A stretch of DNA of 64,000 nt from Deltaproteobacteria bacterium (GTDB taxonomy: Bacteria > Myxococcota_A > Polyangia > Fen-1088), in contig JANRKS010000028.1 in assembly GCA_033763315.1 (NCBI GenBank), positions 128,001-192,000 of the forward strand, written 5' to 3'. The notes below the pieces were generated by a model that worked only from the letters and a program-made list of their open reading frames with translations, ran no database searches and was not told the origin of the DNA. Below are positions 40,077 through 56,571 of this stretch, piece by piece. Position numbers and translations under genes: made by a program. Numbering within the stretch: position 1 is the stretch's first letter; the number at the start of each line of letters is the position of its first letter.

Positions 40077-40719
40077 GCGGTTTGCCCCCAGGCTTGGTGT
40101 TGGTTTGATCTAACTGCTCGTAAGCGTCGGTGATCGCGCGAAACAGTCGCTCGAGCAGCGTGCGAAACATGCCCAGATTCTTGCCGTAGAAGCGATCTGG
40201 GTGCAGTTCCTTCGACGCCACAAAGTAGGCTTTCTTGAGCGCCTTGTGATCGGCCGTGGGCGACACGCCCAAGAGTTCGTGGGGCGCCAGCTTCGGCAGC
40301 AGGCGCGCCGCCCGTATGAGCCGCGTCTTTAACGTGATCTCGAGATCCGGGCCGTCGATCAAGTCGGCGGGATCGACCGCGGAGCCATCATCCAAGCGAG
40401 CCAACACGGTTTGCCCCGGCGGCACGGGCGTTTTGGGTTTTGGTGACGCGGGCGCCTGTGCGGGCGGTGGCGAGCGAGGTGTTTCACCTGGGTTGTAGAT
40501 GAGCCCCGCTTGCTTAAGCTTTCGCAGGATTTCAATTGTGCCAGCCGCGCCGAGGCCAGTGACATTGCAGATCTCAGCGTAGCTCGTGTGACCATCCACG
40601 CGAGACATCACAAACCCTTCGGTGGGTGATAGCTTTACCGCGCGCAGGTCAGCCTTGGGGTTCAACAACGGCTTGGTTTTCTTGGGGCCTAAGCCCTCGA
40701 TGTCATCCGAAGCGCTCAC
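40069..40719 (-). CDS. J-domain (DnaJ-like) protein with N-terminal winged-helix-like module
   Basis: LSPTEGFVMSRVDG module; C-terminal LLGV....LKKAY...SKELHPDRF with intact HPD; GTGA overlap with argF. Confidence 0.8.
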   Translation of the reverse strand: MSASDDIEGLGPKKTKPLLNPKADLRAVKLSPTEGFVMSRVDGHTSYAEICNVTGLGAAGTIEILRKLKQAGLIYNPGETPRSPPPAQAPASPKPKTPVPPGQTVLARLDDGSAVDPADLIDGPDLEITLKTRLIRAARLLPKLAPHELLGVSPTADHKALKKAYFVASKELHPDRFYGKNLGMFRTLLERLFRAITDAYEQLDQTNTKPGGKPRG

Positions 40720-41681
40720 GGGCGGGGTAGTAAAAATTCCAGCAACGCTTTTTGCGCGTGCAAACGGTTCTCGGCCTGGCGCCACACATGGCTTTGCGGG
40801 CCTTCGAACACTTCTTCAGTGATCTCTTCGCCCCTGTGTGCGGGCAAGCAGTGCAACACCATCGCGTTGGGTGACGCCAGCTTCATCAAAGCGCCGTCCA
40901 AACAATAACCGGCAAAATCTTTCAGGCGCTGCTCTGTTTCCGCCTCTTGCCCCATCGACGTGAACACGTCAGTGGAGATCACATCGCGGTCCGCCACCGC
41001 TTCTTTCGGATCGGAGACCACGGTGATTTTTGCAGCGGCGTTGGCGCGCGCCTTCGCCAAGATGGCGGCATCTGGTTGATAGTTCGGCGGGCAAGCCAGC
41101 ATAAGATCAAGACCAAGCAAGCCTGCCGCTTCGATCCAGCTGTTGGCCATGTTGTTGCCATCGCCAAGCCACGCATATTTGCGCGCGCTTAAGATAGCGG
41201 CCGCATCCAACGAGCCCAGGCCCACGCCGCGGGCAGCGCCAAAGTGCCCAAGCACGGTCTGCAGATCCGCCAACAGCTGGCAGGGGTGCAGAAGATCGGT
41301 GAGGCCATTGATCACAGGCACCGTCGCATACTGGGCCAACTCTTGCGCCACCTCATGACCGAACGTGCGAATCATGATCGCGTGGCAATAACCTGAAAGC
41401 ACCCGCGCCGTATCTTTGACGGGCTCACCACGGCCCAATTGCGAACCGTCACGGCCCAACACCACCGCGAAGCCCCCCAGTTCGGCGACGCCAACCTCGA
41501 AACTCACGCGCGTGCGTGTGCTGGCTTTTTCAAAAACAAGCGCCACCACGGAGCCAGGGCGCGAAGCCGCAGCCGTACGCGTGCTGCGCAAAAACCGCAG
41601 CTCTTCAGCGCGCAGGAGCAACCCGCACAGCTCATTGGCGGTGACGTCGTCAAACCCTAAGAAGTCGCGTTTAGGCGCCAT
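40716..41681 (-). CDS. argF: Ornithine carbamoyltransferase
   Basis: STRTR, HPCQ, GDGNN, SMG, HCLP, QAENR. Confidence 0.96.
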   Translation of the reverse strand: MAPKRDFLGFDDVTANELCGLLLRAEELRFLRSTRTAAASRPGSVVALVFEKASTRTRVSFEVGVAELGGFAVVLGRDGSQLGRGEPVKDTARVLSGYCHAIMIRTFGHEVAQELAQYATVPVINGLTDLLHPCQLLADLQTVLGHFGAARGVGLGSLDAAAILSARKYAWLGDGNNMANSWIEAAGLLGLDLMLACPPNYQPDAAILAKARANAAAKITVVSDPKEAVADRDVISTDVFTSMGQEAETEQRLKDFAGYCLDGALMKLASPNAMVLHCLPAHRGEEITEEVFEGPQSHVWRQAENRLHAQKALLEFLLPRP

Positions 41682-41694
41682 GAATTTTCGATCC

Positions 41695-42903
41695 TTATGA
41701 AGCGGCGCTGAGGACAGCGTTCAAAATGCCCACAGCTTCATCAATTTCAGCTTTGGTGACCAGCAACGCGGGCACGAAGCGAACCACCTTGCCGCCCGCC
41801 ACGCTTAACAACAGGCCACGTTCGCGTGCTTGCGCCACGATGGGGGCCGCGTCGCCCGCCATCACCAAACCCTGCAACAAACCCCGCCCGCGTGCGGCGG
41901 TGGTTTTCGGATAATGCGCAGCGGCCAAGCGTGCCAGTTCACCATTTAGGTAGGCGCCCATCGCTTGCACGTTCTGCAGCAGCCCCAAGTCATCAATCGC
42001 GTGTTGCACATAAAGCGCGGCCGCGCTGGCCAGCGGGTTGCCACCAAACGTTGAGGCATGCACGCCAGGCTCGAACGCACGCGACACCTCAGGTGACGCC
42101 AACATCGCCCCCATCGGCACGCCGCCGGCGATGCCTTTGGCCAGCGTGATCACGTCAGGCACCATGTTCTCTTGCTCGAACGCATAAAAGGTGCCCGTAC
42201 GGCCCACGCCTGTTTGCACTTCGTCAAAGATCAACAACGCACCGGCCGCGTCGCAGGCCTGCCGCAACTGCAACAAATAACCGGGCGGCGGGACCAAGAT
42301 GCCGCCTTCAGCCGCGATGGGCTCCACGATCACGGCGCACGTGTTCGGCCCCAGGTGTACCTTCACTGCGTCCAAGTTGCCGTAGGGCACGAACGTGACG
42401 CCGGGCACGAGAGGGCCAAAGCCTTCCCGGTATTTGGTTTGTCCCGTCACCGACAACGCGCCCATCGTGCGGCCGTGGAAACTGCCTTCAAACGCGATAA
42501 TCTCGGTCCGGTTCGGCTGCTGCTTGCAAGTCACCTGGTACCGACGCGCGATCTTGAGGGCCGCCTCGTTGGCCTCTGCGCCCGAGTTACAGAAAAACGC
42601 ACGGCCTGCAAAAGCACGCTTGGCCAAGGCCTCGGCGAACAACACCTGCGTCTCGACGTAATAAAGGTTCGAGGTGTGGATGAGGCGCGAGGCTTGGCTG
42701 GCAATGGCGTCGGCCAAGCCCCTGTGGCCGTGGCCCAAGGCACACACGGCAATGCCCGCAGTCATATCTAAATAGCGACGGCCTTCGGTGTCCCACAAAA
42801 CACAGCCTTCACCACGGCTCATCACGATGGGTGATTGCCGGTAGTTTTGCAGGAGCAGCTTTTCCGCTGCGCCGATGAGCTCTTGCGCGTGGGTGTTCGA
42901 CAT
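41695..42903 (-). CDS. argD: Acetylornithine aminotransferase
   Basis: NSGAEANE, FHGRT, DEVQTG.GRTG, AKG..GG, STFGGNP; adjacent to argF. Confidence 0.93.
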   Translation of the reverse strand: MSNTHAQELIGAAEKLLLQNYRQSPIVMSRGEGCVLWDTEGRRYLDMTAGIAVCALGHGHRGLADAIASQASRLIHTSNLYYVETQVLFAEALAKRAFAGRAFFCNSGAEANEAALKIARRYQVTCKQQPNRTEIIAFEGSFHGRTMGALSVTGQTKYREGFGPLVPGVTFVPYGNLDAVKVHLGPNTCAVIVEPIAAEGGILVPPPGYLLQLRQACDAAGALLIFDEVQTGVGRTGTFYAFEQENMVPDVITLAKGIAGGVPMGAMLASPEVSRAFEPGVHASTFGGNPLASAAALYVQHAIDDLGLLQNVQAMGAYLNGELARLAAAHYPKTTAARGRGLLQGLVMAGDAAPIVAQARERGLLLSVAGGKVVRFVPALLVTKAEIDEAVGILNAVLSAAS

Positions 42904-43009
42904 TGGAGCCCAGCAAAATACCAGAATCCGCGGCCACCGAAAGCCAACGACCACGCAACAGCTGGTTTAATGTGACCGCAAAGGTATGACCGGTGTTGTG
43001 CAGAGCCGG

Positions 43010-43018
43010 TGCTAGACT
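43010..43018 (+). promoter_or_regulatory. Extended -10 element (TGcTAGACT), likely leaderless ECF transcript
   Basis: 7 nt before GTG 43026; no SD. Confidence 0.5.
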
Positions 43019-43025
43019 TGGGCAA

Positions 43026-43622
43026 GTGGCCGCGACGCTTAGCCGCAAAGAGGTGGAAGCGCTGTTCCGCACCTATGGACCATTGGTGCGGCGGCGGGCG
43101 CGCAGCATCTTAGGCAATGATTCCGAAGCCGACGACGCCACCTCGGAAGTGTTCGTCAAGGTCTTGTTGCGCCTCGATGATTTTCGGGGTGAGAGCCAGC
43201 CATCCACGTGGCTTTACCGCATCACCACCAATTTGTGCCTAAACCGCATCCGGGACGAAAAGCGGCACCGCGCCCGTCTCGAAGAGCTGGGGGAGGCCAG
43301 GCAAGCCCACATCGCCGCTGAGCGGCCGGCCACCGGTGGGCCCGAAGGCCGCCTGGCGCTGCAGGTGTTGTTGCAGACGATCCCAGCCGATCTGGCAGAG
43401 GTCGCGGTGTACTACCATGTGGACGGCATGGAGCAGGAGGAGATTGCCGCTGTGATGGGCGTGGCGCGCCGAACCATAGGATATCGTTTGGAAAGATTCC
43501 GCGAGGAGGCTCGCAAACACCTTGGCATGGACGCGCTTGGTGATGGCTTCAAACAATCTATATCTTCGGTTGATCCCGTTGCCGTGGATCCACCGCTTGG
43601 GGGTCCAAAGCCCCAGGAATAG
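43026..43622 (+). CDS. ECF RNA polymerase sigma factor
   Basis: Region 2 ADDATSEVF...FRGES..STWLYRI..N.C.N..R; region 4 GM...EIA..MGV.RRT. Confidence 0.92.
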   Translation: MAATLSRKEVEALFRTYGPLVRRRARSILGNDSEADDATSEVFVKVLLRLDDFRGESQPSTWLYRITTNLCLNRIRDEKRHRARLEELGEARQAHIAAERPATGGPEGRLALQVLLQTIPADLAEVAVYYHVDGMEQEEIAAVMGVARRTIGYRLERFREEARKHLGMDALGDGFKQSISSVDPVAVDPPLGGPKPQE

Positions 43623-43629
43623 CTGGCAC

Positions 43630-44436
43630 ATGCAAACGAAGAACGAAGCCGCAGGGGGGGCACGTCGGGTGGGGCGCGAATGCCTTTCGGACTTGCAGCT
43701 CGACCAGATGGAGCTGGGAGAGTTGGATGGCGTGACGAACGATCGCGCCCGCTTGCACCTGGCCCAGTGTGGCGTGTGCAAAGAAGCGTGGGAAGCCCTG
43801 GTGGCCGACCGACGCGCGTTCGCCGAAGCGGTGGACGTGCCTCGTGTGGCGGCGCGCATCGTGGCCACAGCTTATCCTTCGGGTGGTCGGGTAAAACGCT
43901 GGTTGCGCGGTCTGGCTTTGCCCGCAGCTTTGGCCGCCGCGGCGGCTTCGGCGCTTGTGTTGTTGGCGCAGCCGCTCAAACTCGCACCCACAGAACGCAT
44001 CAAAGGTGGAGCAGGCGCGGTGACCTTGGCCACATACGTAAAGTACGCGGGTCATGAACAACCCGGCAGCCTTTATATGGGGGAGCCACTGAGGGTGGGC
44101 GACCGTGTGCAGTTTCGGATCAGCACGGCCGCGCCGGGACATCTGGCGATCCTTTCGATTGATGGCCGGGGCGATGTGTCCGTGTTCTACCCGTCAGGTT
44201 CCACCACGGCGTCGGTGGGTGCTGGCAAGGATCAGCCGCTTGGCAACGCTGTGGAGCTCGACGAAAGCGAAGGCACGGAGACGGTTGTGGCGTTGTTGTG
44301 TGAAGCCGAACGTCCGCTGGCCGATCTCGTCACAGCGGCGCGCAAGGCGGCCACACAAGGCGCGGTGCCGGCGCCCTTGCACACAGGTTGCGTGGAAACA
44401 CGCACAACACTGACGAAAGCGACGCCGTCGCGCTGA
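43630..44436 (+). CDS. Zinc anti-sigma factor (ZAS) with TM helix and periplasmic DUF4384-like domain
   Basis: C...HLAQCGVC zinc motif, one TM, then ERIKGG and L..GD.V.F....G.L.I..ID..G.V...YP. Confidence 0.82.
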   Translation: MQTKNEAAGGARRVGRECLSDLQLDQMELGELDGVTNDRARLHLAQCGVCKEAWEALVADRRAFAEAVDVPRVAARIVATAYPSGGRVKRWLRGLALPAALAAAAASALVLLAQPLKLAPTERIKGGAGAVTLATYVKYAGHEQPGSLYMGEPLRVGDRVQFRISTAAPGHLAILSIDGRGDVSVFYPSGSTTASVGAGKDQPLGNAVELDESEGTETVVALLCEAERPLADLVTAARKAATQGAVPAPLHTGCVETRTTLTKATPSR

Positions 44437-44452
44437 CCGCGGCCGCGCTAAC

Positions 44453-46063
44453 ATGAAGGCTGTGGTTGCTCGCCTGACCCGTCGCTGCCTTGTTCTGCTC
44501 GCGTTCGCGCTGGCGTGGGGCAGGATGCAACCCGCTCATGGGGCCGTGCAACGTTACGCTCTGTTGATCGGCGTTAACGAAGGCCACGCACAAGATCCCC
44601 GTCTGCAGTTCGCTGAATCCGACGTAGACAATGTGGCGCAAACGCTGGAAGCGGTGGGCGGCTTTCGCAGCGATCGCATCGTGCGGCTGAAAAATGCGAC
44701 GGCTGAACAAACGCGCAACGCTGTCGTCGACTTGAACCTCTTGATCCAGCGCGACGTCAACGCAGGCACCGAAGCGGTGTTGTTCGTGTATTTTTCGGGC
44801 CACGGCGCCGGGGGCGAGCTGCACATGCGCGGCACCACGCTGGCCACGGAAGAGTTATCGAAGCTCGTGAAGCTTTCGGCGGCGAAGCTCAAGCTTTTGA
44901 TGCTGGACGCGTGCCGCGCGGGGTCGCTCACGCGGGTCAAAGGCGGGCGGCAAGTGGCCCCATTTCAGATCGGCATGGCGGAGCAGCTGCGCAACGAAGG
45001 CTTCGCCATCATCACGTCTTCAGCAGCGGGTGAAGACGCCCAAGAATCCGATACGTTGCAGTCATCGGTGTTCACGCATCACTTCTTGGGCGGCCTGCGC
45101 GGCTTGGCCGATGCCAACCGGGACGGCCTTGTGACCTTGGGTGAAGCTTATGGCTACGCCTATGCGCAATCGTTGCGCAGCTCGATGACAACGGTCGTTG
45201 GTTCGCAACACGCCACGTTCGATTACGACTTGCGCGGCCGCGCCGATCCCGTGTTGGCGAATCTCAATGCCGCGCACGCTGAGGCCGAGCTGGTGTTGCG
45301 CGATCCGGGGGATTACTTGATCGCGCCCGCGTCGGGCCCTGGCGCCTTGGTGGAGGCACACGCCACCGAAAACAATACGCGTTTGCGCTTACCGGCGGGA
45401 ACCTATGGCGTTCGCATGCGTACGCCTCGCCGCATCTTGCAAACGGATGTGGCGCTGACCGCAGCCCACAGCACATGGCTCACCGCGGACGAGATGACCG
45501 CATTGCCGCCGGCTTTGGCCGTTCGCAAAGGCGAAGTGGCGGCCACGCTCGTGCATGGCCCTTCGCTGGCTGGATCGATGCACGGGCCGGTGGCCAATGG
45601 TTTTTCCTCGACGGTGGGGGCTCAACTCGGATGGGCGTTCGAGTTTCCCAGCATAACGGTGATGCCACGCTTCGGTTTGGGACGCGCCGAGCCCGTTCGT
45701 TTGCCGGAGCAGATCCTATCGCATGAGCTCACCGAGTTGAGCCTCGATGTGGCCGCGCTTTATGTGTTTGATCTGGCGGGCGTGTCCGTGGCGCCGCTGG
45801 CGGCCCTCGGCTCGGCTATGTTCTCGCAAACGATCGAACGCCTGGATGGCAGCACCACCGCGCGGCCGTGGGCGTTGATGACCAGCGTCGGTGCCTGGGC
45901 CAACTGGCCGCTGGCCAAAGGCTTTTCGCTTGAAACCAGCGCTGAATTGGCGGCGTTCTTCGTACGTCGGCAAAGCGAAAATAACGCCGCCGGCGTAACG
46001 TCAACGCCGCAGTCCGGCTCGGCCACGTATCGCGTGTCCGTGGGTTTAGGCTACCGGTACTAA
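44453..46063 (+). CDS. Exported caspase-like (peptidase C14) protein with C-terminal beta-barrel
   Basis: Signal peptide; RYALLIG.N, YFSGHG (H117), LDACR (C154), AQES, S.FTH; amphipathic beta-strands ending VGLGYRY. Confidence 0.88.
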   Translation: MKAVVARLTRRCLVLLAFALAWGRMQPAHGAVQRYALLIGVNEGHAQDPRLQFAESDVDNVAQTLEAVGGFRSDRIVRLKNATAEQTRNAVVDLNLLIQRDVNAGTEAVLFVYFSGHGAGGELHMRGTTLATEELSKLVKLSAAKLKLLMLDACRAGSLTRVKGGRQVAPFQIGMAEQLRNEGFAIITSSAAGEDAQESDTLQSSVFTHHFLGGLRGLADANRDGLVTLGEAYGYAYAQSLRSSMTTVVGSQHATFDYDLRGRADPVLANLNAAHAEAELVLRDPGDYLIAPASGPGALVEAHATENNTRLRLPAGTYGVRMRTPRRILQTDVALTAAHSTWLTADEMTALPPALAVRKGEVAATLVHGPSLAGSMHGPVANGFSSTVGAQLGWAFEFPSITVMPRFGLGRAEPVRLPEQILSHELTELSLDVAALYVFDLAGVSVAPLAALGSAMFSQTIERLDGSTTARPWALMTSVGAWANWPLAKGFSLETSAELAAFFVRRQSENNAAGVTSTPQSGSATYRVSVGLGYRY

Positions 46064-46095: not shown

Positions 46096-47373
<1,278 letters not shown>

Positions 47374-47440: not shown

Positions 47441-50400
47441 ATGGCCTCTGTTTGGCAAGCGTTAGGGCGTTTCTTTCGAGCGATCTTTGGGCAATGGCAA
47501 CCACCACCGTGGGCCGTGTTTCTGGGCAACAAAACCCGGCAAGGCGGACGGTGGGCGACGCAACACAAGCGCGCTTCTGCGGTTTCATTGCTGCTGTTGA
47601 TCGGCCTCGGTGCGGGTGGCTTCTTCGGCTATCGCGCTTGGAAGAGCCGTCCGCAACCCGAGCTTGTGCAAGTGTCGCTCAACCCGCCCGGCCTCACGGT
47701 GTTGCAAGAACATCTGCAGCCCCAGCCCTTGACGGTTGAGTTCGAAAGATCCGTCGCGCCATTGGCCGCGGTCGATAAAGTTCTGAAGGCCGGCGTGGCC
47801 CTTTCACCACGCGTGCCGGGCACGTGGAAGTGGATCTCGGATCGCCAGCTCGCGTTTACGCCAAAAACCGATTGGCCCGTGGGGCAAGAAATCGCGGTCA
47901 CCTTTGACAAGAAGGGCTTCGTCGCTCCGCACATCAAGCTCAAAGAATACCAACTGACGTTCAAGACGGCGCCCTTCGAGGTGCAGCTTGAACAAAGTGA
48001 GTTCTACCAAGATCCTGCCAACCCCTCATTGAAGAAGGCTGTGGCGACCTTTGCTTTCAGTCACGCCGTAAACACAGACACCTTTGCTCAGAACCTCAAG
48101 CTCACGTTCGAACCCTCGAACAAGGAAGAAGCTGCGTTCGCACCCGCCTTTCACATCACATACGACAAGCTAAAGGGCAAAGCGTTCGTGCACTCGGATC
48201 CGTTGCCGGTGCCCCAGAAGGACGCGACCGTGGTGTTGACGCTCAAACCAGGCACACGTGCGGCGGCCGGGGGGCCTGGCAAAGACACAGAGGTGGTGGG
48301 CCGCGTGGCAGTGCCCGGCCTCTACAACTTCTTTCGCATCGCAAACGTCTACACGCAGGTGGTGGACAACCCGCGCATGGAGCCAGAACAGATCTTGTTC
48401 TTCGACACTTCGACCGGCGTGGCCAACAAAGAACTGACCGCGAACATCGAGGTGTGGACCTTGCCCGTCTACCACCCCACCGAACAAACGACACCCGAGA
48501 GCCGCAGCTCGCCTTACCGCTGGAGCAGCCCCGAAATGATCTCGCCCGCCATCTTAAAGGGCGGCCAGAAGTTGAAGCTGCAAGCCTTGCCTACGGTGCG
48601 GGAGTACGATGTGCAGCACACTTACCGGCACGAAGCGCCGATCGGTCGCTTTCTTTATGTGCAAGTGAAGAAGGGCGTCAAAGCGTTCGGCGGCTACCTG
48701 TTGGGCGACACGCAGACCTTCATCGTGGAGGTGCCGCCCTTTCCTCGCCAGTTGAAGATCATGCACTCAGGCGCGCTGTTGGCCAGCAGCGGTGATCGCA
48801 AAGTCAGCGTTTTCACGCGCGACGTGCCGCAAATCAAATTGCAGGTCGCACGCATTTTGCCGTCACAGATCCAGCATCTGGTGGCGAGGAGCCATGGCTC
48901 GTTCGCGCAACCGTCATTCTCGTGGGATTTCGATCTCGAGAACATGGCGCAGTTTCAAGATGAGACGCGCACGTTGGCGCAAACCCCAGGAAAACCTGTG
49001 TATGAGACGTTGGATCTGACGCCCTATTTGCCCAAAGAGGGTCCGCGCCGCGGGCTGTTTCACATCAAAGTGCAAAGCTGGAAAGACAGCTACGCGCTGG
49101 GAGAATCAGATGAGCGCTTCATCTTGCTTTCGGATCTGGGCGTGTTCGTCAAGCGCACCGTATCGGGTACGCGAAGTGTGTTTGTGCAGAGCATCGCGGC
49201 GGGCACGCCTGTGGCGGACGCGCAGGTGGAAGTGCTCGGCAAAAACGGCATGGTGGTGGCGCGCGCGCGCACGGGGGCCGATGGCAAAGCCGAACTTGCG
49301 AACCTCGAATCGCTGCGCGCGGAAAAGTCACCGGTGCTTGTGCTCGTGAACGCCGGCAACGACACTTCATTTTTGCCGTGGGACCGCCGCGATCGCGAGA
49401 TGGACGTGTCGCGCTTTGACGTGGGCGGCGTGGCTGAAAGCGAAGAGGCCGGCAAATTGGCCGCGTACGGTTTCTCAGATCGCACGCTTTACCGCCCGCA
49501 AGAAACGTTTCACGTGGGCTTCATCGTGCGCAGCCAAGACTGGGCGGCCAACTACAACGGCTTGCCGTTGGTGGCCACAATCACCGATCCACGCGGCATG
49601 GAGGTCAAAAGTGAACCGGTGACGTTGGACGCCTCGGGCTTCGCGGCGATTGATTACACCACAAGGTACACGGCACCCACGGGCAGCTATGCGGTAAACC
49701 TTTATCTGGTGAAAAAGGGCGTGCCCAGCGATCTGCTGGGCTCCACCACGGTGCAGGTACGCGAATTCTTGCCGGATCGAATGACCATCAAGGTTGAATT
49801 GACGAAACAGAACACCGGCGGCTGGACCACCGCACAGGATCTGGATGCCAAGGTAACGCTGACAAATCTTTACGGCACGCCCGCATCGAACAAACGCGTG
49901 GTGACGCGGATTTCCCTTACACCTGGGATTCCAAGTGTGCGCGGCATGCCGGGCTTTCGGTTCTACGATCCATTGAAGCCAAACGATCCGGTGCAAGAGA
50001 CACTGGCCGCGGAACACACGAACGATGACGGAACTGCCGAGATTAAACTGAACCTGCAGCGCTTTGCGCCCGCCACGTACCGCTTGAGCGTGATGGCCGA
50101 AGGCTTTGAGGGCGAAGGCGGACGCAGCGTGGCCGCCGAGGCGACAACGTTCGTGTCGCCTTTGCCTTACATGATTGGCTACAAAACCGAAGGCGACCTT
50201 TCCTACTTGCACATGGGCTCGGCGCAAGTCGTGCTGCTCGCAGCGGCCTCGCCCGAAGGCGAGCGGATGAGCGTGGGTGGCCTGACGCAAGTGCTCCTGG
50301 AACGAACGTACGTCTCTGCTTTGGTGAAGCAAGCGAACGGCACATACCGCTATGAATCCGTGGGCAAGGATGTGGAACGCTCGCGCAAGCCCTTGCAGTT

Positions 50401-53296
50401 CAGCAAGGCTGACACGGCTGTGACCTTGCCCACCGACAAACCGGGCACATTCTTTCTCACGGTGCAAAACGCCGAAGGGCTGGAGCTGCAGCGCGTGCCG
50501 TTCACCGTGGCCGGCCAAGCCAATCTGGCACGAACAATGGATCGCATCACCGAACTGCAGCTTTCGCTGGCCAATGCCAGCGTAGACCCAGGCGCGCCTT
50601 TGGAAGTGCAGATCAAAGCGCCGTACGCGGGCTCGGGGCTCATCACGATCGAACGCGATCGCGTGTATGCACACAAATGGTTTCACACAGACACCACGGG
50701 CACCATTGAGAAGATCGACGTGCCCGCGGGGTTGGAAGCCGGTGGGTATGTTTCAGTGGCGATGATTCGGGATGCGGCCTCTGCCGATGTGTTCGTAAGC
50801 CCGTTGTCTTATGGAATCGTTCCGTTTTCAATTAGCCGCGATCAGCGGCGCATCAACGTCAAAGTGGACGCGCCCGCGTTAGCGAAGCCAGGCGTGGTCA
50901 TGAAGCTCAACGTCACGGCCGACAAGCCTGGGCGCGCCGTGGTGTTCGCCGTGGATGAAGGCATCTTGCGCGTGGCCAAACATCCCAACCCGGATCCATT
51001 GGGTCACTTTCTGCAAAAGCGGCAACTGGGCGTTTCCACAACTCAGATCCTAGATCTCATTCTGCCCGAGCATCGCTTATTGATGCAGGCGCTTGCCCCT
51101 GGTGGTGGCGACGAAGCGGATGCCAGCGCTTTGGGTGCCAATTTAAACCCTTTCAAACGCAAGCAAGACATCCCCGCGGTGTATTGGTCGGGCCTGGTGG
51201 ATGTGGGGCCGCAAGCCAAAGAACTAAGCTTCTTGGTGCCGGATAGTTTCGCGGGCACGTTGCGCGTGATGGCCGTGGCCGCGAATGCCAGCGCCGTGGG
51301 TGCCTATGTGGGGCAAAGCTTGGTGCGCGGCGATTTTGTGATCAGCCCCAACGTACCTACGTTCGTCGCACCCGGCGATATGTTCGACGTGCCAGTGACG
51401 GTGGCCAACAACGTGGAGGGTTCAGGCAAAGCCGCCAACGTGACGTTAACGCTGCAAACCACGCCGCATGTTGAAGTTGTGGGCAGCGCCAAAGCCTCCC
51501 TCACCGTGGGCGAATTGCATGAAGCGGCCACCACTTTCAAGCTGCGCGCCAAAGACACACTGGGCTCGGCAGGGCTGACGTGGAAGGCCACGCTTGGCAA
51601 AGCGTTTGGGCAACGCCGGGTGGATGTCAGCGTGCGGCCCGCGGCGCCCTTCCTATCGACTTTGAATGTTGGGTATCTGAAAAACGGCAGCAAGAAGGTG
51701 CCCGTGCAGCGGCAGCTTTATGGTGCCTTTCGCACGTTGCAGACGGGGCTATCACCCGTGCCCACCACGCTGTCTTCGGGGTTGGCACGCTACTTGGAGA
51801 AATTCCCGCACGGATGCACCGAGCAGATCAGCAGCCAAGCGGTGCCAGCGCTTGTGATGGCAAGCCCGGGGGGCGGCAGTGCACCGCCCGTGGACGCCGC
51901 CAACGCGGTATCACGCTTCACCGAGCTGGTGGCCACACGGCAGAACGATGAAGGCGGCTTCGGCTTGTGGGTCGCAACCCCGAACGCGGCACCGCTGGCC
52001 AGCGTTTACACAATGCTTGTGTTAACCGAGGCCAAAGATCGTGGCTTTCCCGTCGCTGCGCGCGTGATGGACAACGGCCTGCGGTACTTGGAAACCGTGG
52101 CAGACGCCACACCTGATGATCTTGCGGGCGCGCGCCTGCGTACGATGGCGATCTATGTACTGACCCGCAACGCGGTGGTGACCACACGGTACGCGTCGGC
52201 GGCACAAAAACACATGGAGGCCAATTACGCCAAGGCGTGGCGTGACGATCCCGCGGCAGCCTATTTGGCGGGCGCATACGCCCTTTTGCAAGATCAGGCC
52301 TTGGCTGAAAAGCTGAGCCAACCTCTGGCGCTGGGACGCGATCGGCAACCCGATTACGCCGCTTACTACGACAACATGGCGCACGACGCGCAGGTGCTCT
52401 ACGTCTTGGCCAAGCACTTCGCACCGCAAGCGGCGAAGCTGCCCTCCAGCGCGCTTGAGGGGATGTTGCGTATGATTGAGAAAGGCGCCTACAACACCTT
52501 CTCGTCGGCGTTCTCCATTTTGGCGTTGGATAGTTACGCTCGCGCAGGCGCGGCCGCCAGTGGTGGCCAACGCAGTGTCGCGCAATGGTTGGCGGGCAAG
52601 GCGGAGCCGCTCGCGTTGCCGCAAACCGCGGGCGCGATGATCGATTTTTCGCCCAAGGCAAGCGCGTTGGAGTTTAACGTGACGGGTGATTTCGGTGCCT
52701 ACTTCGTCGTCAGCCAACAAGGCTTTGATCAGGTGCTGCCCACCAAGCCGCGCGCGGAGAAAGTGGAAGTGTTCCGCGAGTACATCGGCAAGGACAACGC
52801 GACGCTCACACAGGTGGCCGCGGGTGATGAGATCCGCGTGCGTTTGCGCGCGCGCAGCCTCGACGGTTACATTCCCAATGCGGCCATCATCGATCTGCTG
52901 CCCGGAGGCTTCGAGGTCGTGATCCAAAGCGCGTCGTCCGGCACAGCTGACAACGACAACACGGGTGACCAGGGCGAAGCCGAAGGTGATGCTGAAGGCA
53001 ACGACGAAAGCAACGGCGGCGACGAGGCACCACCTGAAACGCCCGCCAGCGGATTCGGGGTGCCCATCGCCATGCCCGGATCTGATCTGCCCCTGGCCTA
53101 CGGCGACGTGCGCGAGGATCGAGTTGTGTTGTACGCCGATCTTGGCCCTGACGCGCACACGTTCATCTACACGATCAAGGCCACGAACACTGGCGACTAT
53201 GTGGTGCCGCCCATCTTGGCCGAATCGCTTTACGATCGCGCGGTGCGCGCCGTGGGCGTCCCTGGCAAGATGACCGTGCAAGCGCCCAAACAATAA
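47441..53296 (+). CDS. Bacterial alpha-2-macroglobulin (YfhM-like)
   Basis: 1951 aa; N-terminal TM, FSDR..YRP MG motif, thioester CTEQ, DLLPGGFE, REDRV; followed by pbpC. Confidence 0.93.
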   Translation: MASVWQALGRFFRAIFGQWQPPPWAVFLGNKTRQGGRWATQHKRASAVSLLLLIGLGAGGFFGYRAWKSRPQPELVQVSLNPPGLTVLQEHLQPQPLTVEFERSVAPLAAVDKVLKAGVALSPRVPGTWKWISDRQLAFTPKTDWPVGQEIAVTFDKKGFVAPHIKLKEYQLTFKTAPFEVQLEQSEFYQDPANPSLKKAVATFAFSHAVNTDTFAQNLKLTFEPSNKEEAAFAPAFHITYDKLKGKAFVHSDPLPVPQKDATVVLTLKPGTRAAAGGPGKDTEVVGRVAVPGLYNFFRIANVYTQVVDNPRMEPEQILFFDTSTGVANKELTANIEVWTLPVYHPTEQTTPESRSSPYRWSSPEMISPAILKGGQKLKLQALPTVREYDVQHTYRHEAPIGRFLYVQVKKGVKAFGGYLLGDTQTFIVEVPPFPRQLKIMHSGALLASSGDRKVSVFTRDVPQIKLQVARILPSQIQHLVARSHGSFAQPSFSWDFDLENMAQFQDETRTLAQTPGKPVYETLDLTPYLPKEGPRRGLFHIKVQSWKDSYALGESDERFILLSDLGVFVKRTVSGTRSVFVQSIAAGTPVADAQVEVLGKNGMVVARARTGADGKAELANLESLRAEKSPVLVLVNAGNDTSFLPWDRRDREMDVSRFDVGGVAESEEAGKLAAYGFSDRTLYRPQETFHVGFIVRSQDWAANYNGLPLVATITDPRGMEVKSEPVTLDASGFAAIDYTTRYTAPTGSYAVNLYLVKKGVPSDLLGSTTVQVREFLPDRMTIKVELTKQNTGGWTTAQDLDAKVTLTNLYGTPASNKRVVTRISLTPGIPSVRGMPGFRFYDPLKPNDPVQETLAAEHTNDDGTAEIKLNLQRFAPATYRLSVMAEGFEGEGGRSVAAEATTFVSPLPYMIGYKTEGDLSYLHMGSAQVVLLAAASPEGERMSVGGLTQVLLERTYVSALVKQANGTYRYESVGKDVERSRKPLQFSKADTAVTLPTDKPGTFFLTVQNAEGLELQRVPFTVAGQANLARTMDRITELQLSLANASVDPGAPLEVQIKAPYAGSGLITIERDRVYAHKWFHTDTTGTIEKIDVPAGLEAGGYVSVAMIRDAASADVFVSPLSYGIVPFSISRDQRRINVKVDAPALAKPGVVMKLNVTADKPGRAVVFAVDEGILRVAKHPNPDPLGHFLQKRQLGVSTTQILDLILPEHRLLMQALAPGGGDEADASALGANLNPFKRKQDIPAVYWSGLVDVGPQAKELSFLVPDSFAGTLRVMAVAANASAVGAYVGQSLVRGDFVISPNVPTFVAPGDMFDVPVTVANNVEGSGKAANVTLTLQTTPHVEVVGSAKASLTVGELHEAATTFKLRAKDTLGSAGLTWKATLGKAFGQRRVDVSVRPAAPFLSTLNVGYLKNGSKKVPVQRQLYGAFRTLQTGLSPVPTTLSSGLARYLEKFPHGCTEQISSQAVPALVMASPGGGSAPPVDAANAVSRFTELVATRQNDEGGFGLWVATPNAAPLASVYTMLVLTEAKDRGFPVAARVMDNGLRYLETVADATPDDLAGARLRTMAIYVLTRNAVVTTRYASAAQKHMEANYAKAWRDDPAAAYLAGAYALLQDQALAEKLSQPLALGRDRQPDYAAYYDNMAHDAQVLYVLAKHFAPQAAKLPSSALEGMLRMIEKGAYNTFSSAFSILALDSYARAGAAASGGQRSVAQWLAGKAEPLALPQTAGAMIDFSPKASALEFNVTGDFGAYFVVSQQGFDQVLPTKPRAEKVEVFREYIGKDNATLTQVAAGDEIRVRLRARSLDGYIPNAAIIDLLPGGFEVVIQSASSGTADNDNTGDQGEAEGDAEGNDESNGGDEAPPETPASGFGVPIAMPGSDLPLAYGDVREDRVVLYADLGPDAHTFIYTIKATNTGDYVVPPILAESLYDRAVRAVGVPGKMTVQAPKQ

Positions 53297-53299
53297 TTC

Positions 53300-55633: not shown

Positions 55634-56571
55634 GACGTGTCTGCGTTGCGGTGGCTGTAGCGCTTGCGGCGGCGTGCAACGTCACGGCACACAACGATTC
55701 CACCACCGGCCCTGCGCCGGTGAGCGCCTACTACGTTGTAGAACGGGCCACGCGCACGCTCAACGATGAGCCGCGCGATCTGCTGCCGGGCTTCGGCTTC
55801 GAGATCACGCAGGTCAAAAAGATCAACGGCGTGAAGGTGGGTGTCTCGCGCTTGGGGCAGCTGATCCCCCTGTCGGATTTGAAACAGGTCAAGCCATCAA
55901 CCTTCGAGGGCGTTCACCAGCCAGACCCGCTGCTGCGGCTGGCCTTCGTGGTACAGCCGCTGGCAGCCATTCGCAGCGCGCCCTCACAAGCGGCGCCTGT
56001 GATCTCACGTGCGCGTCGACTTGCGGTGTTAACACTAAAGACGCACGACGGACCCCTTGGGTATTACCACACGACACAGGGTTGGGTGGCGGCGAACGAC
56101 GTGCGGGTGCCGCGGTTGTCGCCCCGCCCACCAAACATCGGCACCAGTGCCAGCGAGGACATCTGGATTGACGTCGACCTTCGAAGCCAAACTTTGGTGG
56201 CTTATGCGGCGGAAAGGCCAGTGTTTGCAACGTTGATCTCAGCCGGCGTGGGCGCGGCCGGCTCCCCATTCGCCACCCCCATGGGGTTGCACCGCATCGT
56301 GGCCAAGCTTCGTGCAGCCACAATGGATAACTTGGAACACACCAACGTGGTGCCCTACCACTATGAAACCGTGCCGCACACGCAATACATTGGCCGCGTG
56401 GCGCTTCATGGCGTGTTCTGGCATGACGACTTCGGGCACCCCAAGAGTCATGGCTGCATCAACTTGTCGATGGCGGACGCCGCCTATCTCTTCGATCTCA
56501 CTCGCCCCAAAGTGTCCCTCGCTAGGAACGAAGGTAACGGCGCACACGGAACAGTCGTTCAAGTCAGGTAA
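55630..56571 (+). CDS. L,D-transpeptidase (YkuD) lipoprotein
   Basis: Lipobox AAAC; IDVDL..Q.L, TP.G, ALHG.FWH..FG.P.SHGCINL; ATGA overlap with pbpC. Confidence 0.9.
   Translation: MRRVCVAVAVALAAACNVTAHNDSTTGPAPVSAYYVVERATRTLNDEPRDLLPGFGFEITQVKKINGVKVGVSRLGQLIPLSDLKQVKPSTFEGVHQPDPLLRLAFVVQPLAAIRSAPSQAAPVISRARRLAVLTLKTHDGPLGYYHTTQGWVAANDVRVPRLSPRPPNIGTSASEDIWIDVDLRSQTLVAYAAERPVFATLISAGVGAAGSPFATPMGLHRIVAKLRAATMDNLEHTNVVPYHYETVPHTQYIGRVALHGVFWHDDFGHPKSHGCINLSMADAAYLFDLTRPKVSLARNEGNGAHGTVVQVR

What the first reader, a model, noticed from the sequence alone, without database searches (positions are those of the whole stretch)
43993..45532. Shared R-[IV]-K-G-G motif in the anti-sigma and the caspase: predicted cleavage site
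Seen: ERIKGG in the anti-sigma shortly after the TM helix (43993-44010, K125); TRVKGG in the protease 6-11 residues after the catalytic Cys (44930-44947, K163); and VRKGE (45521-45535) in the linker before the barrel. Known: metacaspase/orthocaspase-type C14 enzymes cut after Arg/Lys and often autoprocess in the loop following the catalytic Cys. Inference: one specificity (RxK/G) could serve autoactivation, release from the barrel, and juxtamembrane cleavage of the anti-sigma. This gives a concrete, testable mechanism for the cassette.
Basis: partly seen in the sequence, partly recalled or inferred. Interest (0 to 1): 0.78.

Follow-up and report, generated by a model that had tools for sequence, protein, structure and literature searches.

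The report
Conserved Lys-Gly sites in caspase/anti-sigma cassette
A bacterial caspase-like protease tethered to the outer membrane and the neighbouring membrane-bound inhibitor of a stress sigma factor carry the same strongly conserved Lys-Gly motif in flexible loops, which makes the inhibitor a concrete candidate substrate of the protease, though no cutting has been shown.

Summary
A shared pentapeptide within this one window is no more than chance. The motifs' conservation is well beyond chance.

**Cassette.** In 80 related Myxococcota loci, an anti-sigma homologue accompanies the caspase in 80 of 80. An ECF sigma gene is present in 73 of 80; the 7 misses have too little contig upstream.

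**Motifs.**
- Anti-sigma: [K/R]-G in 79 of 79 rows that cover it, and R-x-K-G in 149 of 149 further cluster representatives.
- Caspase: K163 is K in 76 and R in 5 of 81 rows; G164 is G in 81 of 81.
- Barrel linker: R358 in 78 of 78; K359 is K in 70 and R in 8.

**Context.**
- All three motifs lie in AlphaFold segments with pLDDT below 50, or at such a segment's edge.
- These lysines persist in homologues that have almost no other lysine.
- The enzyme has metacaspase-type S1 residues.

**Limits.**
- K-to-R changes at the three sites fall in one lysine-poor clade. There are too few independent events to test co-variation.
- Cleavage is inferred, not shown.

Verdict: a well-supported, testable hypothesis and a new variant of protease-controlled anti-sigma signalling.

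The parts
42993..43622 (+). ECF sigma factor gene (209-aa ORF from GTG; the true start may lie further downstream)
   Evidence: Pfam Sigma70_r2 3.5e-19 and Sigma70_r4_2 2e-7. TIGR02937 sigma70-ECF scores 86.1 bits against a cut-off of 42.9. A homologue lies next to the anti-sigma in 73 of 80 loci.
43630..44436 (+). Single-pass transmembrane anti-sigma factor, 268 aa. It has a cytoplasmic C18/H43/C47/C50 zinc-type anti-sigma domain, a TM helix and a periplasmic beta-sandwich (DUF4384).
   Evidence: ORF and start codon. DUF4384 1.3e-7 at residues 154-223. H43 is conserved in 73 of 77 rows, C47 in 74 of 77 and C50 in 74 of 76. A homologue is present in 80 of 80 loci. AF2 model has mean pLDDT 85.4.
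43918..43968 (+). Transmembrane helix of the anti-sigma (residues 97-113)
   Evidence: Helix 97-113 in the AF2 model. Ala/Leu-rich segment in the alignment.
43996..44010 (+). Juxtamembrane motif R123-I-K125-G126-G127. Proposed site-1 cleavage between K125 and G126.
   Evidence: R123 in 67 of 78 rows. K125 is K in 72 and R in 6 of 79. G126 in 78 of 79. The two apparent exceptions, L077 and L042, read R-G one residue off. R-x-K-G in 149 of 149 representatives. pLDDT is below 50 for residues 114-124 and the first strand starts at 131.
44020..44418 (+). Periplasmic beta-sandwich domain of the anti-sigma (residues 131-263), with an invariant Cys pair C224/C254
   Evidence: Strands 131-263 with pLDDT mostly above 90. 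C224 in 80 of 80, C254 in 63 of 63 and D211 in 80 of 80 rows. Only weak Ig-like/RhoGDI-like fold matches; none reaches E <= 0.001.
44453..46063 (+). Secreted C14 (metacaspase-like) protease, 536 aa. It consists of a signal peptide, caspase domain, beta-sandwich, linker and a C-terminal 8-stranded outer-membrane barrel.
   Evidence: Peptidase_C14 1.5e-14, 54.7 bits against a cut-off of 21.4. AF2 model has mean pLDDT 85.3. Fold matches to MALT1 caspase-Ig3, Yca1 and procaspase-7, and to Ail, NspA and the OmpA barrel.
44801..44914 (+). Catalytic dyad H117 (in S-G-H-G) to C154 (in D-A-C-R)
   Evidence: H117 and C154 are present in 81 of 81 rows and D152 in 80 of 81. S115, G116 and H117 are invariant in A1.
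44918..45001 (+). Loop between the catalytic-Cys strand and the next strand (residues 156-183). It is topologically the caspase intersubunit linker, or L2 loop.
   Evidence: Strand 146-155, no secondary structure at 156-183, then strand 184-190. pLDDT is below 50 at 157-168 and 174-181.
44930..44947 (+). T160-R-V-K163-G-G165. Proposed autoprocessing or autoinhibitory site, K163 to G164.
   Evidence: T160 in 78 of 81 rows, R161 in 78 of 81 and V162 in 64 of 81. K163 is K in 76 and R in 5 of 81. G164 in 81 of 81 and G165 in 65 of 80. 104 of 120 database homologues read RxKGG.
45110..45145 (+). EF-hand-like loop D220-A-N-R-D224-G-L-V-T-L-G-E231 in the caspase domain. Possible Ca2+ site.
   Evidence: D220 in 81 of 81 rows, position 222 is N/D/S in 80 of 81, D224 in 75 of 81, V227 in 69 of 81 and E231 in 81 of 81. 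Weak profile match to a calcium-binding protein, E 0.45. The link to Ca2+ is an inference.
45251..45481 (+). Beta-sandwich domain after the caspase domain (residues 267-343), in the position of the MALT1 Ig3 domain
   Evidence: Strands 267-343. The best PDB fold matches are MALT1 caspase-Ig3 chains.
45521..45535 (+). Linker motif V357-R358-K359-G360-E361. Proposed release cut between K359 and G360.
   Evidence: V357 in 62 of 78 rows and R358 in 78 of 78. K359 is K in 70 and R in 8 of 78. G360 in 77 of 78. pLDDT is below 50 at 355-364.
45551..46054 (+). C-terminal 8-stranded beta-barrel (residues 367-534). The protein ends ...G-Y-R-Y.
   Evidence: Long antiparallel strands 367-534. Fold matches to Ail (TMt 0.65), NspA (0.58) and the OmpA transmembrane domain (0.53).

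Best explanation
The cassette is an ECF sigma / anti-sigma / protease signalling module.

**Components**
- The protease is a secreted metacaspase-like C14 enzyme. A C-terminal 8-stranded barrel holds it at the outer membrane.
- The anti-sigma is a single-pass inner-membrane protein. Its cytoplasmic zinc domain holds the sigma factor, and a periplasmic beta-sandwich (DUF4384) follows the membrane helix.

**Proposed mechanism.** The three conserved Lys-Gly dipeptides, each with an Arg one or two residues before the Lys and each in a flexible segment, are P1-P1' sites for this Lys/Arg-specific protease.
1. K163-G164, in the loop after the catalytic Cys, is the zymogen's own site. It may be a pseudo-substrate lock that is cut on activation, as Lys225 is in the plant metacaspase AtMC4.
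2. K359-G360 frees the caspase plus beta-sandwich unit from its barrel.
3. K125-G126, about 12 residues outside the membrane, is the site-1 cut. It removes the periplasmic domain of the anti-sigma. An RseP-type site-2 protease can then finish the job and release the sigma factor.

**Shown here:** gene order, domain architecture, conservation of the triad and of the motifs, predicted disorder at the motifs, and metacaspase-type pocket residues.

**Inferred:** every cleavage event, their order, the release step, the involvement of RseP, and the signal. Ca2+ is a guess, based on a conserved EF-hand-like loop.
For: **Conserved partnership**
- The anti-sigma homologue is present in 80 of 80 loci. 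It lies directly upstream on the same strand in 78.
- The sigma gene is present in 73 of 80. The 7 misses have too little contig upstream.

**Motif conservation (81 rows)**
- Anti-sigma: K125 is K in 72 and R in 6 of 79; G126 in 78 of 79; R123 in 67 of 78. The two apparent exceptions read R-G one residue off.
- Caspase: K163 is K in 76 and R in 5 of 81; G164 in 81 of 81.
- Linker: R358 in 78 of 78; K359 is K in 70 and R in 8 of 78; G360 in 77 of 78.
- R-x-K-G occurs in 149 of 149 further 50%-identity cluster representatives of the anti-sigma domain.

**Selection for Lys against composition**
- 18 columns passed the filter for conserved basic columns. Only these three are K-dominated; the other 15 are R-dominated.
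- Six caspase rows have only 3 lysines in total, yet keep both K163 and K359. Two anti-sigma rows have a single Lys, and it is K125.

**Flexibility**
- pLDDT is below 50 at caspase residues 157-168 and 355-364 and at anti-sigma residues 114-124.
- Sequence that is highly conserved yet unstructured is typical of a linear recognition or cleavage motif.

**The motif is not needed for the domain fold.** A relative with four tandem copies of the domain (P0133) has no [K/R]-G before any copy. It matches profile positions 14-123 only.

**Enzyme type**
- The closest solved relatives by sequence are metacaspase-1, -9 and -4, at E 5e-6 to 2e-4.
- S115-x-H117 and D152-x-C154 match Ser84/His86 and Asp137/Cys139 of AtMC4. 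Those residues form the pocket that holds AtMC4's self-cleaved Lys225 (PMC7206013 passages).
- D57 aligns with the Asp of the metacaspase I-N-D motif.

**Precedent**
- The caspase-like protease Csx29 cuts Csx30, which binds the sigma factor RpoE. One group of Csx30 C-terminal domains is DUF4384 (bioRxiv 10.1101/2022.08.17.504292 passages).
- The M. xanthus anti-sigma DdvA carries a periplasmic caspase-like domain. Its authors propose that this domain clips its own juxtamembrane linker before RseP acts (PMC11506125 passages).

**Basic-for-basic exchange**
- K-to-R exchange occurs at all three sites in the same rows: L043, L048, L070, L075 and L077.
- Apart from L061, which reads K-R at 359-360, no site carries a non-basic residue before the Gly.
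Against: - No cleavage has been observed. All of this is sequence and model inference.
- Co-variation cannot be tested. All K-to-R changes lie in one 15-row clade, with a minimum of 3, 4 and 4 changes. Only 2-4 independent pairs exist.
- The all-Arg rows have 1, 1, 1 and 2 lysines in the whole caspase (L043, L048, L075, L077). Lysine loss through composition explains them as well as a shift in specificity does.
- No pocket residue changes together with the K-to-R swap.
- Mixed states exist: L073 is K,R,R; L054 is K,K,R; L049 is K,R,K.
- The near-invariance of T160, R161, G164 and G165 exceeds what a low-specificity metacaspase site would need. AtMC4 recognises its linker mainly through main-chain contacts. 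The loop may therefore also have a structural or catalytic role.
- The three sites are not one pattern. Two are R-x-K-G and one is R-K-G. The second Gly is not conserved in the anti-sigma.
- A fourth conserved Lys, K263, sits in a well-folded strand and is not followed by Gly. So a conserved Lys is not in itself a cleavage mark.
- A barrel-tethered enzyme would have to be released to reach a site about 12 residues from the inner membrane. That adds an assumption.
Confidence: 0.5

Rival explanations
1. Pseudo-substrate or docking motifs without cleavage. The Lys-Gly segments bind the acidic S1 pocket but are not cut. K163 would be a permanent autoinhibitory lock. The anti-sigma's R-x-K-G would hold or inhibit the protease, or sense its state. 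Signalling would then run by binding and release rather than by site-1 proteolysis.
For: - In uncleaved AtMC4, Lys225 sits locked between the catalytic residues as an inhibitor (PMC7206013 passages).
- Flanking residues T160, R161, G164 and G165 are very strictly conserved.
- A weak fold match of the anti-sigma model to a B. subtilis intracellular proteinase inhibitor (3isy, E 0.023) is a lead only.
Against: - In AtMC4 the locked Lys is in fact cleaved on activation.
- An intact Cys-His dyad in 81 of 81 rows argues for a working protease.
- The position of the anti-sigma motif, in a disordered tether between the membrane helix and the folded domain, is where known site-1 cuts fall, as described for regulated intramembrane proteolysis in PMC11506125.
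Confidence: 0.2
2. The motifs are real cleavage sites but for a different protease, for example a general trypsin-like periplasmic protease. The adjacent caspase would act on something else, or downstream.
For: - Lys/Arg-Gly is a simple site that many proteases could use.
- Nothing here ties the cut to this particular enzyme except gene linkage and its predicted basic P1 preference.
Against: - Two of the three motifs are inside the caspase itself. One of them lies in the loop where caspases and type II metacaspases cut themselves.
- The strict three-gene linkage (80 of 80 and 73 of 80) points to the encoded protease.
- No other protease gene is conserved in the neighbourhood. The window's two downstream genes were found in 0 of 80 loci.
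Confidence: 0.1
3. Unrelated constraints. The three Lys-Gly elements are each conserved for their own reason: an active-site loop, a domain-linker hinge, and the N-terminal cap of the DUF4384 domain. Their likeness would be a coincidence of short, Gly-rich turns.
For: - Shared pentapeptides between two proteins of this composition are common (89% of shuffles).
- The patterns differ: R-x-K-G against R-K-G.
- A fourth conserved Lys, K263, has no Gly after it.
- No co-variation could be shown statistically.
Against: - Three of the four K-dominated conserved columns are followed by a near-invariant Gly, preceded by a near-invariant Arg, and lie in low-pLDDT segments.
- Lys is kept there in proteins that have lost almost all other Lys.
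- The domain can exist without the motif (P0133).
Confidence: 0.15

Closest known systems
Type III-E CRISPR 'Craspase': Csx29 (TPR-CHAT) cleaving Csx30, which binds the sigma factor RpoE
   Same: A caspase-family protease cuts a flexible linker of a sigma-binding protein encoded beside an ECF-type sigma factor. One group of Csx30 C-terminal domains is DUF4384, described as often fused to protease domains (bioRxiv 10.1101/2022.08.17.504292, passages read).
   Different: - Craspase is cytoplasmic and RNA-triggered, and uses a CHAT protease bound to Cas7-11.
- Its reported cut sites are after Met or Leu (as quoted in PMC11506125).
- Here the protease is a Peptidase_C14 / metacaspase-like enzyme with a signal peptide and an outer-membrane barrel.
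- The substrate candidate here is a transmembrane zinc-type anti-sigma, and the proposed P1 is Lys/Arg.
- The flanking genes that were checked are arginine biosynthesis, alpha-2-macroglobulin and PbpC, not cas genes.
DdvA/DdvS of Myxococcus xanthus (transmembrane anti-sigma with a periplasmic TPR-CHAT domain)
   Same: - Same phylum.
- It has a CHCC zinc anti-sigma domain, a single TM helix and a caspase-fold module in the periplasm.
- Its authors propose caspase-like cleavage of the flexible juxtamembrane linker, followed by RseP. They showed RseP-dependent turnover of a truncated DdvA (PMC11506125, passages read).
   Different: - In DdvA the protease-like domain is part of the anti-sigma itself (about 900 residues, dimeric, with an incomplete active site).
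- No cleavage motif was defined for DdvA.
- Here the protease is a separate, barrel-anchored protein with a complete dyad. The anti-sigma carries a small DUF4384 domain and a defined conserved R-x-K-G.
Arabidopsis metacaspase 4 (type II metacaspase) self-inhibition and Ca2+-dependent self-cleavage at Lys225
   Same: - A Lys in the segment after the catalytic-Cys strand occupies an acidic pocket built from Ser-x-His and Asp-x-Cys residues. It is cut on activation (PMC7206013, passages read).
- The same Ser/Asp positions are conserved here: S115 and D152.
- AtMC4 is among the nearest solved sequences.
   Different: - AtMC4 is cytosolic. Its Lys225 lies 86 residues after Cys139, in a large linker domain.
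- Here K163 is 9 residues after C154, in a 28-residue loop. That spacing is closer to the 12 residues of executioner caspases (recalled, not from a call).
- The PDB sequence match covers only the N-terminal part, up to the catalytic His.
Sigma-E / RseA / DegS / RseP regulated intramembrane proteolysis (E. coli)
   Same: The logic is the same. A periplasmic site-1 protease removes the anti-sigma's periplasmic domain, and a site-2 protease follows (general description in PMC11506125).
   Different: The site-1 protease there is an inner-membrane-anchored serine protease activated by outer-membrane-protein C-termini (recalled). Here it would be an outer-membrane-anchored cysteine protease that may first have to cut itself loose.
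MALT1 paracaspase (caspase-Ig3)
   Same: It is the best PDB fold match: a caspase domain followed by an Ig-like domain. It is Arg-specific with an Asp two residues before the catalytic Cys (recalled).
   Different: It is eukaryotic and cytosolic, with no barrel and no known link to sigma factors. Sequence identity is 12-14%.

Membership tests
Peptidase C14 (caspase / metacaspase fold) | Match to the family profile above the curated cut-off | tested here: met
   PF00656 scores 54.7 bits against a gathering cut-off of 21.4, E 1.5e-14, residues 34-217.
Peptidase C14 (caspase / metacaspase fold) | Catalytic His-Cys dyad | tested here: met
   H117 (S-G-H-G) and C154 (D-A-C-R) are present in 81 of 81 rows.
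Peptidase C14 (caspase / metacaspase fold) | Caspase-hemoglobinase fold | tested here: met
   The AF2 model (pLDDT 85.3) matches MALT1, Yca1, procaspase-7 and caspase-6 with Foldseek probability 1.00.
Metacaspase/orthocaspase type (C14B, cuts after Arg/Lys) | Acidic S1 pocket residues: Asp two residues before the Cys, Ser two before the His, and Asp of the I-N-D motif | tested here: met
   D152 in 80 of 81 rows, S115 invariant in A1 and D57 in 79 of 81. D57 aligns with the Asp of I-N-D / V-N-D in metacaspase-1, -9 and -4. The AtMC4 pocket is Ser84, Asp137, Ser350 and Asp352. The p10-side counterpart (E194/D195, 81 of 81) is assigned by likeness only.
Metacaspase/orthocaspase type (C14B, cuts after Arg/Lys) | Measured cleavage after basic residues | not testable with these tools
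   This needs an enzyme assay.
ECF sigma factor | [quoted passage not shown] | tested here: met
   Sigma70_r2 and Sigma70_r4_2. TIGR02937 scores 86.1 bits against a cut-off of 42.9.
Zinc-binding (ZAS-type) transmembrane anti-sigma factor | H-x3-C-x2-C motif in an N-terminal helical domain, a single TM helix, and a gene adjacent to the sigma factor | tested here: met
   H43 in 73 of 77 rows, C47 in 74 of 77 and C50 in 74 of 76. Helices 21-81 and TM helix 97-113. The gene starts 8 nt after the sigma ORF ends. The Pfam zf-HC2 model itself did not match at E <= 0.01. It is carried by 16-24% of members of the nearest Atlas structure clusters. Binding to the sigma factor was not tested.
Regulated intramembrane proteolysis (site-1 / site-2) pathway | Site-1 cut in the periplasmic juxtamembrane region, then cleavage by an RseP-type site-2 protease | not tested
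   No search for RseP was made in the window. Cleavage cannot be tested in silico.
Craspase (type III-E CRISPR Csx29-Csx30-RpoE) | TPR-CHAT protease associated with Cas7-11 and CRISPR genes | tested here: not met
   The protease matches Peptidase_C14 and C13, not CHAT or TPR. It has an N-terminal signal-like sequence and an outer-membrane barrel. The neighbours that were checked are arginine genes, alpha-2-macroglobulin, PbpC and YkuD. The rest of the window was not screened for cas genes.
OmpA/OmpX-like 8-stranded outer-membrane barrel | Eight long antiparallel strands closing a barrel, with an aromatic C-terminal residue | tested here: met
   Strands 367-534. Matches to Ail (TMt 0.65), NspA (0.58) and the OmpA TM domain (0.53). 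The protein ends in Tyr. No Pfam barrel family matched. Membrane insertion was not tested.

The most novel reading that the evidence does not exclude
The module is a trans-envelope proteolytic relay run by a bacterial caspase. The zymogen is parked on the outer membrane by its own barrel and may be gated by Ca2+ through a conserved EF-hand-like loop. It unlocks itself at K163, cuts itself free at K359 and crosses the periplasm. There it acts as the dedicated site-1 protease of its partner anti-sigma at K125, switching on an ECF regulon. This would give a defined physiological substrate and cleavage motif for a bacterial metacaspase homologue. It would also be a new way of carrying an outer-membrane signal to the cytoplasm.
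Probability: 0.3. Interest if true: 0.8.

Novelty: new variant of a known kind. Interest (0 to 1): 0.68.

Why it matters
- **A candidate substrate for a bacterial caspase.** Caspase homologues are widespread in bacteria, but their natural substrates are, to my recollection, largely unknown. Likewise, the protease that starts the destruction of most ECF anti-sigma factors has not been identified.
- **A large family.**
  - 417 genome stretches encode relatives of the protease.
  - 9155 cluster representatives match the anti-sigma's periplasmic domain at E <= 0.001, and 603 at E <= 1e-30.
- **A directly testable prediction.** The family pairs one protease with one candidate substrate and names the exact bond, K125-G126. 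It also names two self-cleavage bonds.
- **Cultured hosts exist.** Relatives with the triad include Minicystis rosea (L022), Labilithrix luteola (L019), and Polyangium and Sorangium strains. Point mutants and in-vitro cleavage assays are therefore feasible.
- **Broader link.** If confirmed, it would connect the cytoplasmic Craspase/Csx30 logic and the DdvA proposal to a general, non-CRISPR envelope signalling route.

Tried and rejected
1. **Complex prediction.** Caspase residues 28-350 were folded with anti-sigma residues 115-268, each with its alignment. The result was 'no answer' (ipSAE 0.01 and 0.00; mark 0.32), and the controls were not run. It counts neither for nor against binding.
2. 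**Independent-pairs test of K/R co-variation.** It found only 2-4 usable pairs, so it had no power.
3. **Pocket residues changing with K-to-R.** Five all-Arg rows were compared with the other 76. Besides positions 163 and 359, only I98V, S142V/I/M, G165A and S205G differ, and these are shared with Lys-bearing clade members. No acidic pocket change was found.
4. **Chance within the window.** A shared pentapeptide between the two proteins is not significant on its own.
5. **Fused forms.** A search for longer proteins (320-2000 aa) with the periplasmic-domain profile found none at E <= 1e-5. The tool itself calls this weak evidence.
6. **PDB fold search with the anti-sigma model.** Nothing reached E <= 0.001. 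The top matches were RhoGDI-like Ig folds.
7. **ESM Atlas look-up.** It returned only unnamed, zf-HC2 or DUF4384 clusters, mostly Myxococcota.
8. **Downstream genes.** The 425-aa ORF and the alpha-2-macroglobulin gene were considered as cassette members. Both were rejected, being found in 0 of 80 loci.
9. **Literature.** No paper in the searched library describes an ECF/DUF4384 anti-sigma/caspase triad.
   - The ECF reclassification paper and its supplementary group descriptions were not seen.
   - bioRxiv supplements are closed.
10. **** (slow alignment settings) timed out. It was repeated with faster settings.

Full report
**1. What is in the window**

Four genes of interest lie on the + strand.
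- An ECF sigma factor lies at 42993-43622. It matches Sigma70_r2 and r4_2 and TIGR02937 at 86.1 bits against a cut-off of 42.9.
- A 268-aa anti-sigma lies at 43630-44436.
- A 536-aa Peptidase_C14 protein lies at 44453-46063 (54.7 bits against a cut-off of 21.4).
- An unrelated 425-aa ORF follows. After it come alpha-2-macroglobulin, PbpC and YkuD genes.

C154 is the catalytic Cys, 9 residues before K163.

**2. Chance**

Inside this one window the coincidence is weak.
- The two proteins share 4 near-identical pentapeptides. Shuffles gave a mean of 2.66, and 89% of 300 shuffles shared at least one.
- So the observation on its own would not deserve attention. Homologues change that.

**3. The cassette is a conserved triad**

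A profile of 44 caspase homologues (A1) found 417 encoding stretches in the genome collection. 80 loci were returned, nearly all from Myxococcota/Polyangia MAGs and isolates.
- A profile of the anti-sigma found a homologue in 80 of 80 loci. In 78 it lies directly upstream on the same strand. In L060 and L080 it lies on the opposite strand.
- The sigma gene was found in 73 of 80. The other 7 (L018, L041, L055, L056, L058, L068, L075) have too little contig upstream to show it.
- The window's two downstream genes were found in 0 of 80 loci, so they do not belong to the cassette.

**4. The motifs are conserved**

Counts are from the window plus 80 loci.

| Site | Residue counts |
|---|---|
| After the Cys | T160 78/81; R161 78/81; V162 64/81; K163 76 K + 5 R of 81; G164 81/81; G165 65/80 |
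| Linker | V357 62/78; R358 78/78; K359 70 K + 8 R of 78; G360 77/78 |
| Anti-sigma | R123 67/78; position 124 variable; K125 72 K + 6 R of 79; G126 78/79; second Gly in 14 of the 40 rows with a residue there |

- The two anti-sigma exceptions, L077 and L042, read R-G one residue off.
- Among 120 database homologues of the caspase, 104 read RxKGG, 8 QxKGG, 2 HxKGG and 2 RxKG[TA]. My pattern missed 4.
- A profile of the periplasmic domain alone (A3) matched 9155 cluster representatives at E <= 0.001. In 149 of the best 150, R-x-K-G is present (149 of 149). The 150th, P0133, is treated in section 6.
- The conserved units are therefore T-R-V-K-G-G, V-R-K-G and R-x-K-G. What they share is a basic residue followed by Gly, with an Arg one or two residues upstream.

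**5. Lysine is specifically kept**

These organisms use little Lys.
- 18 columns of the two proteins passed my filter (at least 60 residues, at least 80% K+R). 15 of them are Arg-dominated. Only c163, c359 and a125 are Lys-dominated.
- One further conserved Lys, K263 of the anti-sigma (57 of 57 rows; at least 90% in A2), fell below the row filter. It sits in a confident beta-strand and is not followed by Gly.
- Six caspase rows (L018, L046, L051, L054, L065, L078) have only 3 Lys in about 500 residues, and two of those are K163 and K359.
- The anti-sigmas of L046 and L079 each have a single Lys, and it is K125.

**6. The motifs sit in flexible segments**

*Caspase model* (pLDDT 85.3). It shows four parts:
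- a caspase domain at about residues 30-260;
- a beta-sandwich at 267-343;
- a linker;
- an 8-stranded barrel at 367-534.

Its only segments with pLDDT below 50 are 157-168 (holding TRVKGG), 174-181, 355-364 (holding VRKGE) and 510-517.

The loop 156-183 joins the catalytic-Cys strand (146-155) to the next strand (184-190). That connection is cut in caspases (recalled) and in the type II metacaspase AtMC4.

*Anti-sigma model* (pLDDT 85.4).
- It has a TM helix at 97-113.
- pLDDT is below 50 at 114-124.
- The first strand of the periplasmic sandwich starts at 131.
- K125-G126 therefore lies in the tether, about 12 residues outside the membrane.

*The fold does not need the motif.* P0133 has four tandem copies of the domain. 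It matches profile positions 14-123 only and has no [K/R]-G before any copy.

**7. What kind of protease**

- By sequence, the nearest solved proteins are metacaspase-1, -9 and -4 (E 5e-6 to 2e-4). The match covers the N-terminal part up to the catalytic His.
- By fold, the nearest are MALT1 caspase-Ig3, Yca1 and procaspases for the enzyme part. For the barrel they are Ail, NspA and OmpA.
- In AtMC4, the pocket holding the self-cleaved Lys225 is built from Ser84 (two residues before His86), Asp137 (two before Cys139), Ser350 and Asp352 (PMC7206013 passages).
- The same positions here are S115 (invariant in A1) and D152 (80 of 81 rows).
- D57 (79 of 81) aligns with the Asp of the metacaspase I-N-D motif.
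- E194 and D195 (81 of 81) are plausible counterparts on the p10 side. That assignment is an inference.
- A basic P1 preference is therefore well founded at the sequence level, though not measured.

**8. Co-variation**

- Five rows (L043, L048, L070, L075, L077) have Arg at all three sites.
- L073 is K,R,R; L054 is K,K,R; L049 is K,R,K. L042 is K,R and an off-register R-G.
- On a tree built without the motif columns, all of these lie in one 15-row clade (SH-aLRT 100). The minimum numbers of changes are 3, 4 and 4. Only 2-4 independent pairs exist, so no test can reach significance.
- The all-Arg rows are also the most Lys-poor. L043, L048 and L075 have 1 Lys in the whole caspase and L077 has 2.
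- No pocket residue changes with them.
- What can be said is this. At all three sites Lys is replaced by Arg only. The one exception is L061, where G360 reads R. The replacements cluster in the same lineages. This fits a basic-P1 site, and it fits compositional drift at sites that tolerate Arg. It does not prove coupling.

**9. Mechanism**

- The protease is made as an outer-membrane-tethered zymogen.
- Its own K163 loop is a substrate-like element of the AtMC4 Lys225 kind.
- A second site, K359, separates the enzyme from its barrel.
- The anti-sigma's K125-G126 is the site-1 bond. Cleaving it would strip off the periplasmic domain and license intramembrane cleavage. This is the scheme proposed, with RseP evidence, for M. 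xanthus DdvA (PMC11506125 passages).
- Two precedents support the general logic.
  - The caspase-like Csx29 cleaves the RpoE-binding Csx30.
- A conserved EF-hand-like loop suggests a Ca2+ input. D220 is present in 81 of 81 rows, position 222 is N/D/S in 80 of 81, D224 in 75 of 81 and E231 in 81 of 81. The Ca2+ link is only an inference.
- None of the cleavages, their order, or the trigger has been shown.

**10. Rivals**

- (a) The segments are pseudo-substrate or docking elements that bind the pocket without being cut.
- (b) A different protease uses the sites.
- (c) Three unrelated constraints happen to look alike.

Points that keep them alive:
- the extra invariance of T160, R161, G164 and G165;
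- the different spacing in the linker site (R-K-G);
- the non-conserved second Gly in the anti-sigma;
- the lack of testable co-variation;
- the need for a release step before a barrel-tethered enzyme could reach the inner membrane.

**11. Novelty and limits**

- Eight library searches found no description of an ECF sigma / DUF4384 anti-sigma / caspase triad, or of this motif.
- A review notes CHAT-domain proteins in the genetic context of group ECF54 (PMC8999054 passage).
- The ECF reclassification paper's group tables were not seen, and bioRxiv supplements are closed. A listing of this gene context there cannot be excluded.
- I rate this a new variant of a known kind, namely protease-triggered release of an ECF sigma factor by a caspase-family enzyme. 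It is of good interest because it names a substrate and the exact bonds to test.

Noticed in passing
window 45110-45145 (caspase residues 220-231): An EF-hand-like loop, D-A-N-R-D-G-L-V-T-L-G-E, inside the caspase domain. It is conserved across 81 rows: D220 in 81 of 81, N/D/S222 in 80 of 81, D224 in 75 of 81 and E231 in 81 of 81. It gives a weak profile match to a calcium-binding protein (E 0.45). It may be a Ca2+ switch, as in metacaspases.
   Followed up: partly
window 47441-56571: A 1951-aa bacterial alpha-2-macroglobulin is followed by a PbpC-type penicillin-binding protein (Transgly, Transpeptidase, BiPBP_C) and a YkuD L,D-transpeptidase. The periplasmic protease inhibitor lies 1.4 kb from the caspase gene, but it is not linked to the triad elsewhere (A2M found in 0 of 80 loci).
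   Followed up: partly
window 46096-47373: A 425-aa ORF directly after the caspase gene. It has a signal-like N-terminus and a C-L-R-C-H (CxxCH, haem-c-like) motif. It has no Pfam or NCBIfam match and was found in 0 of 80 related loci.
   Followed up: no
protein P0133: A 758-aa relative with a duplicated N-terminal anti-sigma-like segment and four tandem copies of the DUF4384-like domain. None of the copies is preceded by [K/R]-G. It was used as a natural control showing that the domain folds without the motif.
   Followed up: partly
window 44299-44391 (anti-sigma C224 to C254), and D211/G215/E217: The periplasmic domain has an invariant Cys pair (C224 in 80 of 80 rows, C254 in 63 of 63), probably a disulfide. 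It also has a conserved L-D-x3-G-x-E patch (D211 in 80 of 80, G215 in 77 of 80, E217 in 77 of 80). The patch may be a docking surface.
   Followed up: no
loci L043, L048, L073, L077: These records are titled Enterobacteriaceae/Enterobacterales MAGs. Their caspases nevertheless sit inside a Myxococcota clade and have only 1-2 Lys in about 500 residues. The bin labels are probably wrong.
   Followed up: no
loci L060 and L080: The sigma and anti-sigma genes are on the opposite strand to the caspase gene. All the motifs the contigs cover are still kept: K,K,K in L060, and K163 and K125 in L080, which is cut off before residue 359.
   Followed up: no
window 40716-42954, minus strand: Ornithine carbamoyltransferase and an acetylornithine-type class III aminotransferase lie just upstream of the cassette and are divergently transcribed. 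They are ordinary arginine-biosynthesis genes.
   Followed up: no
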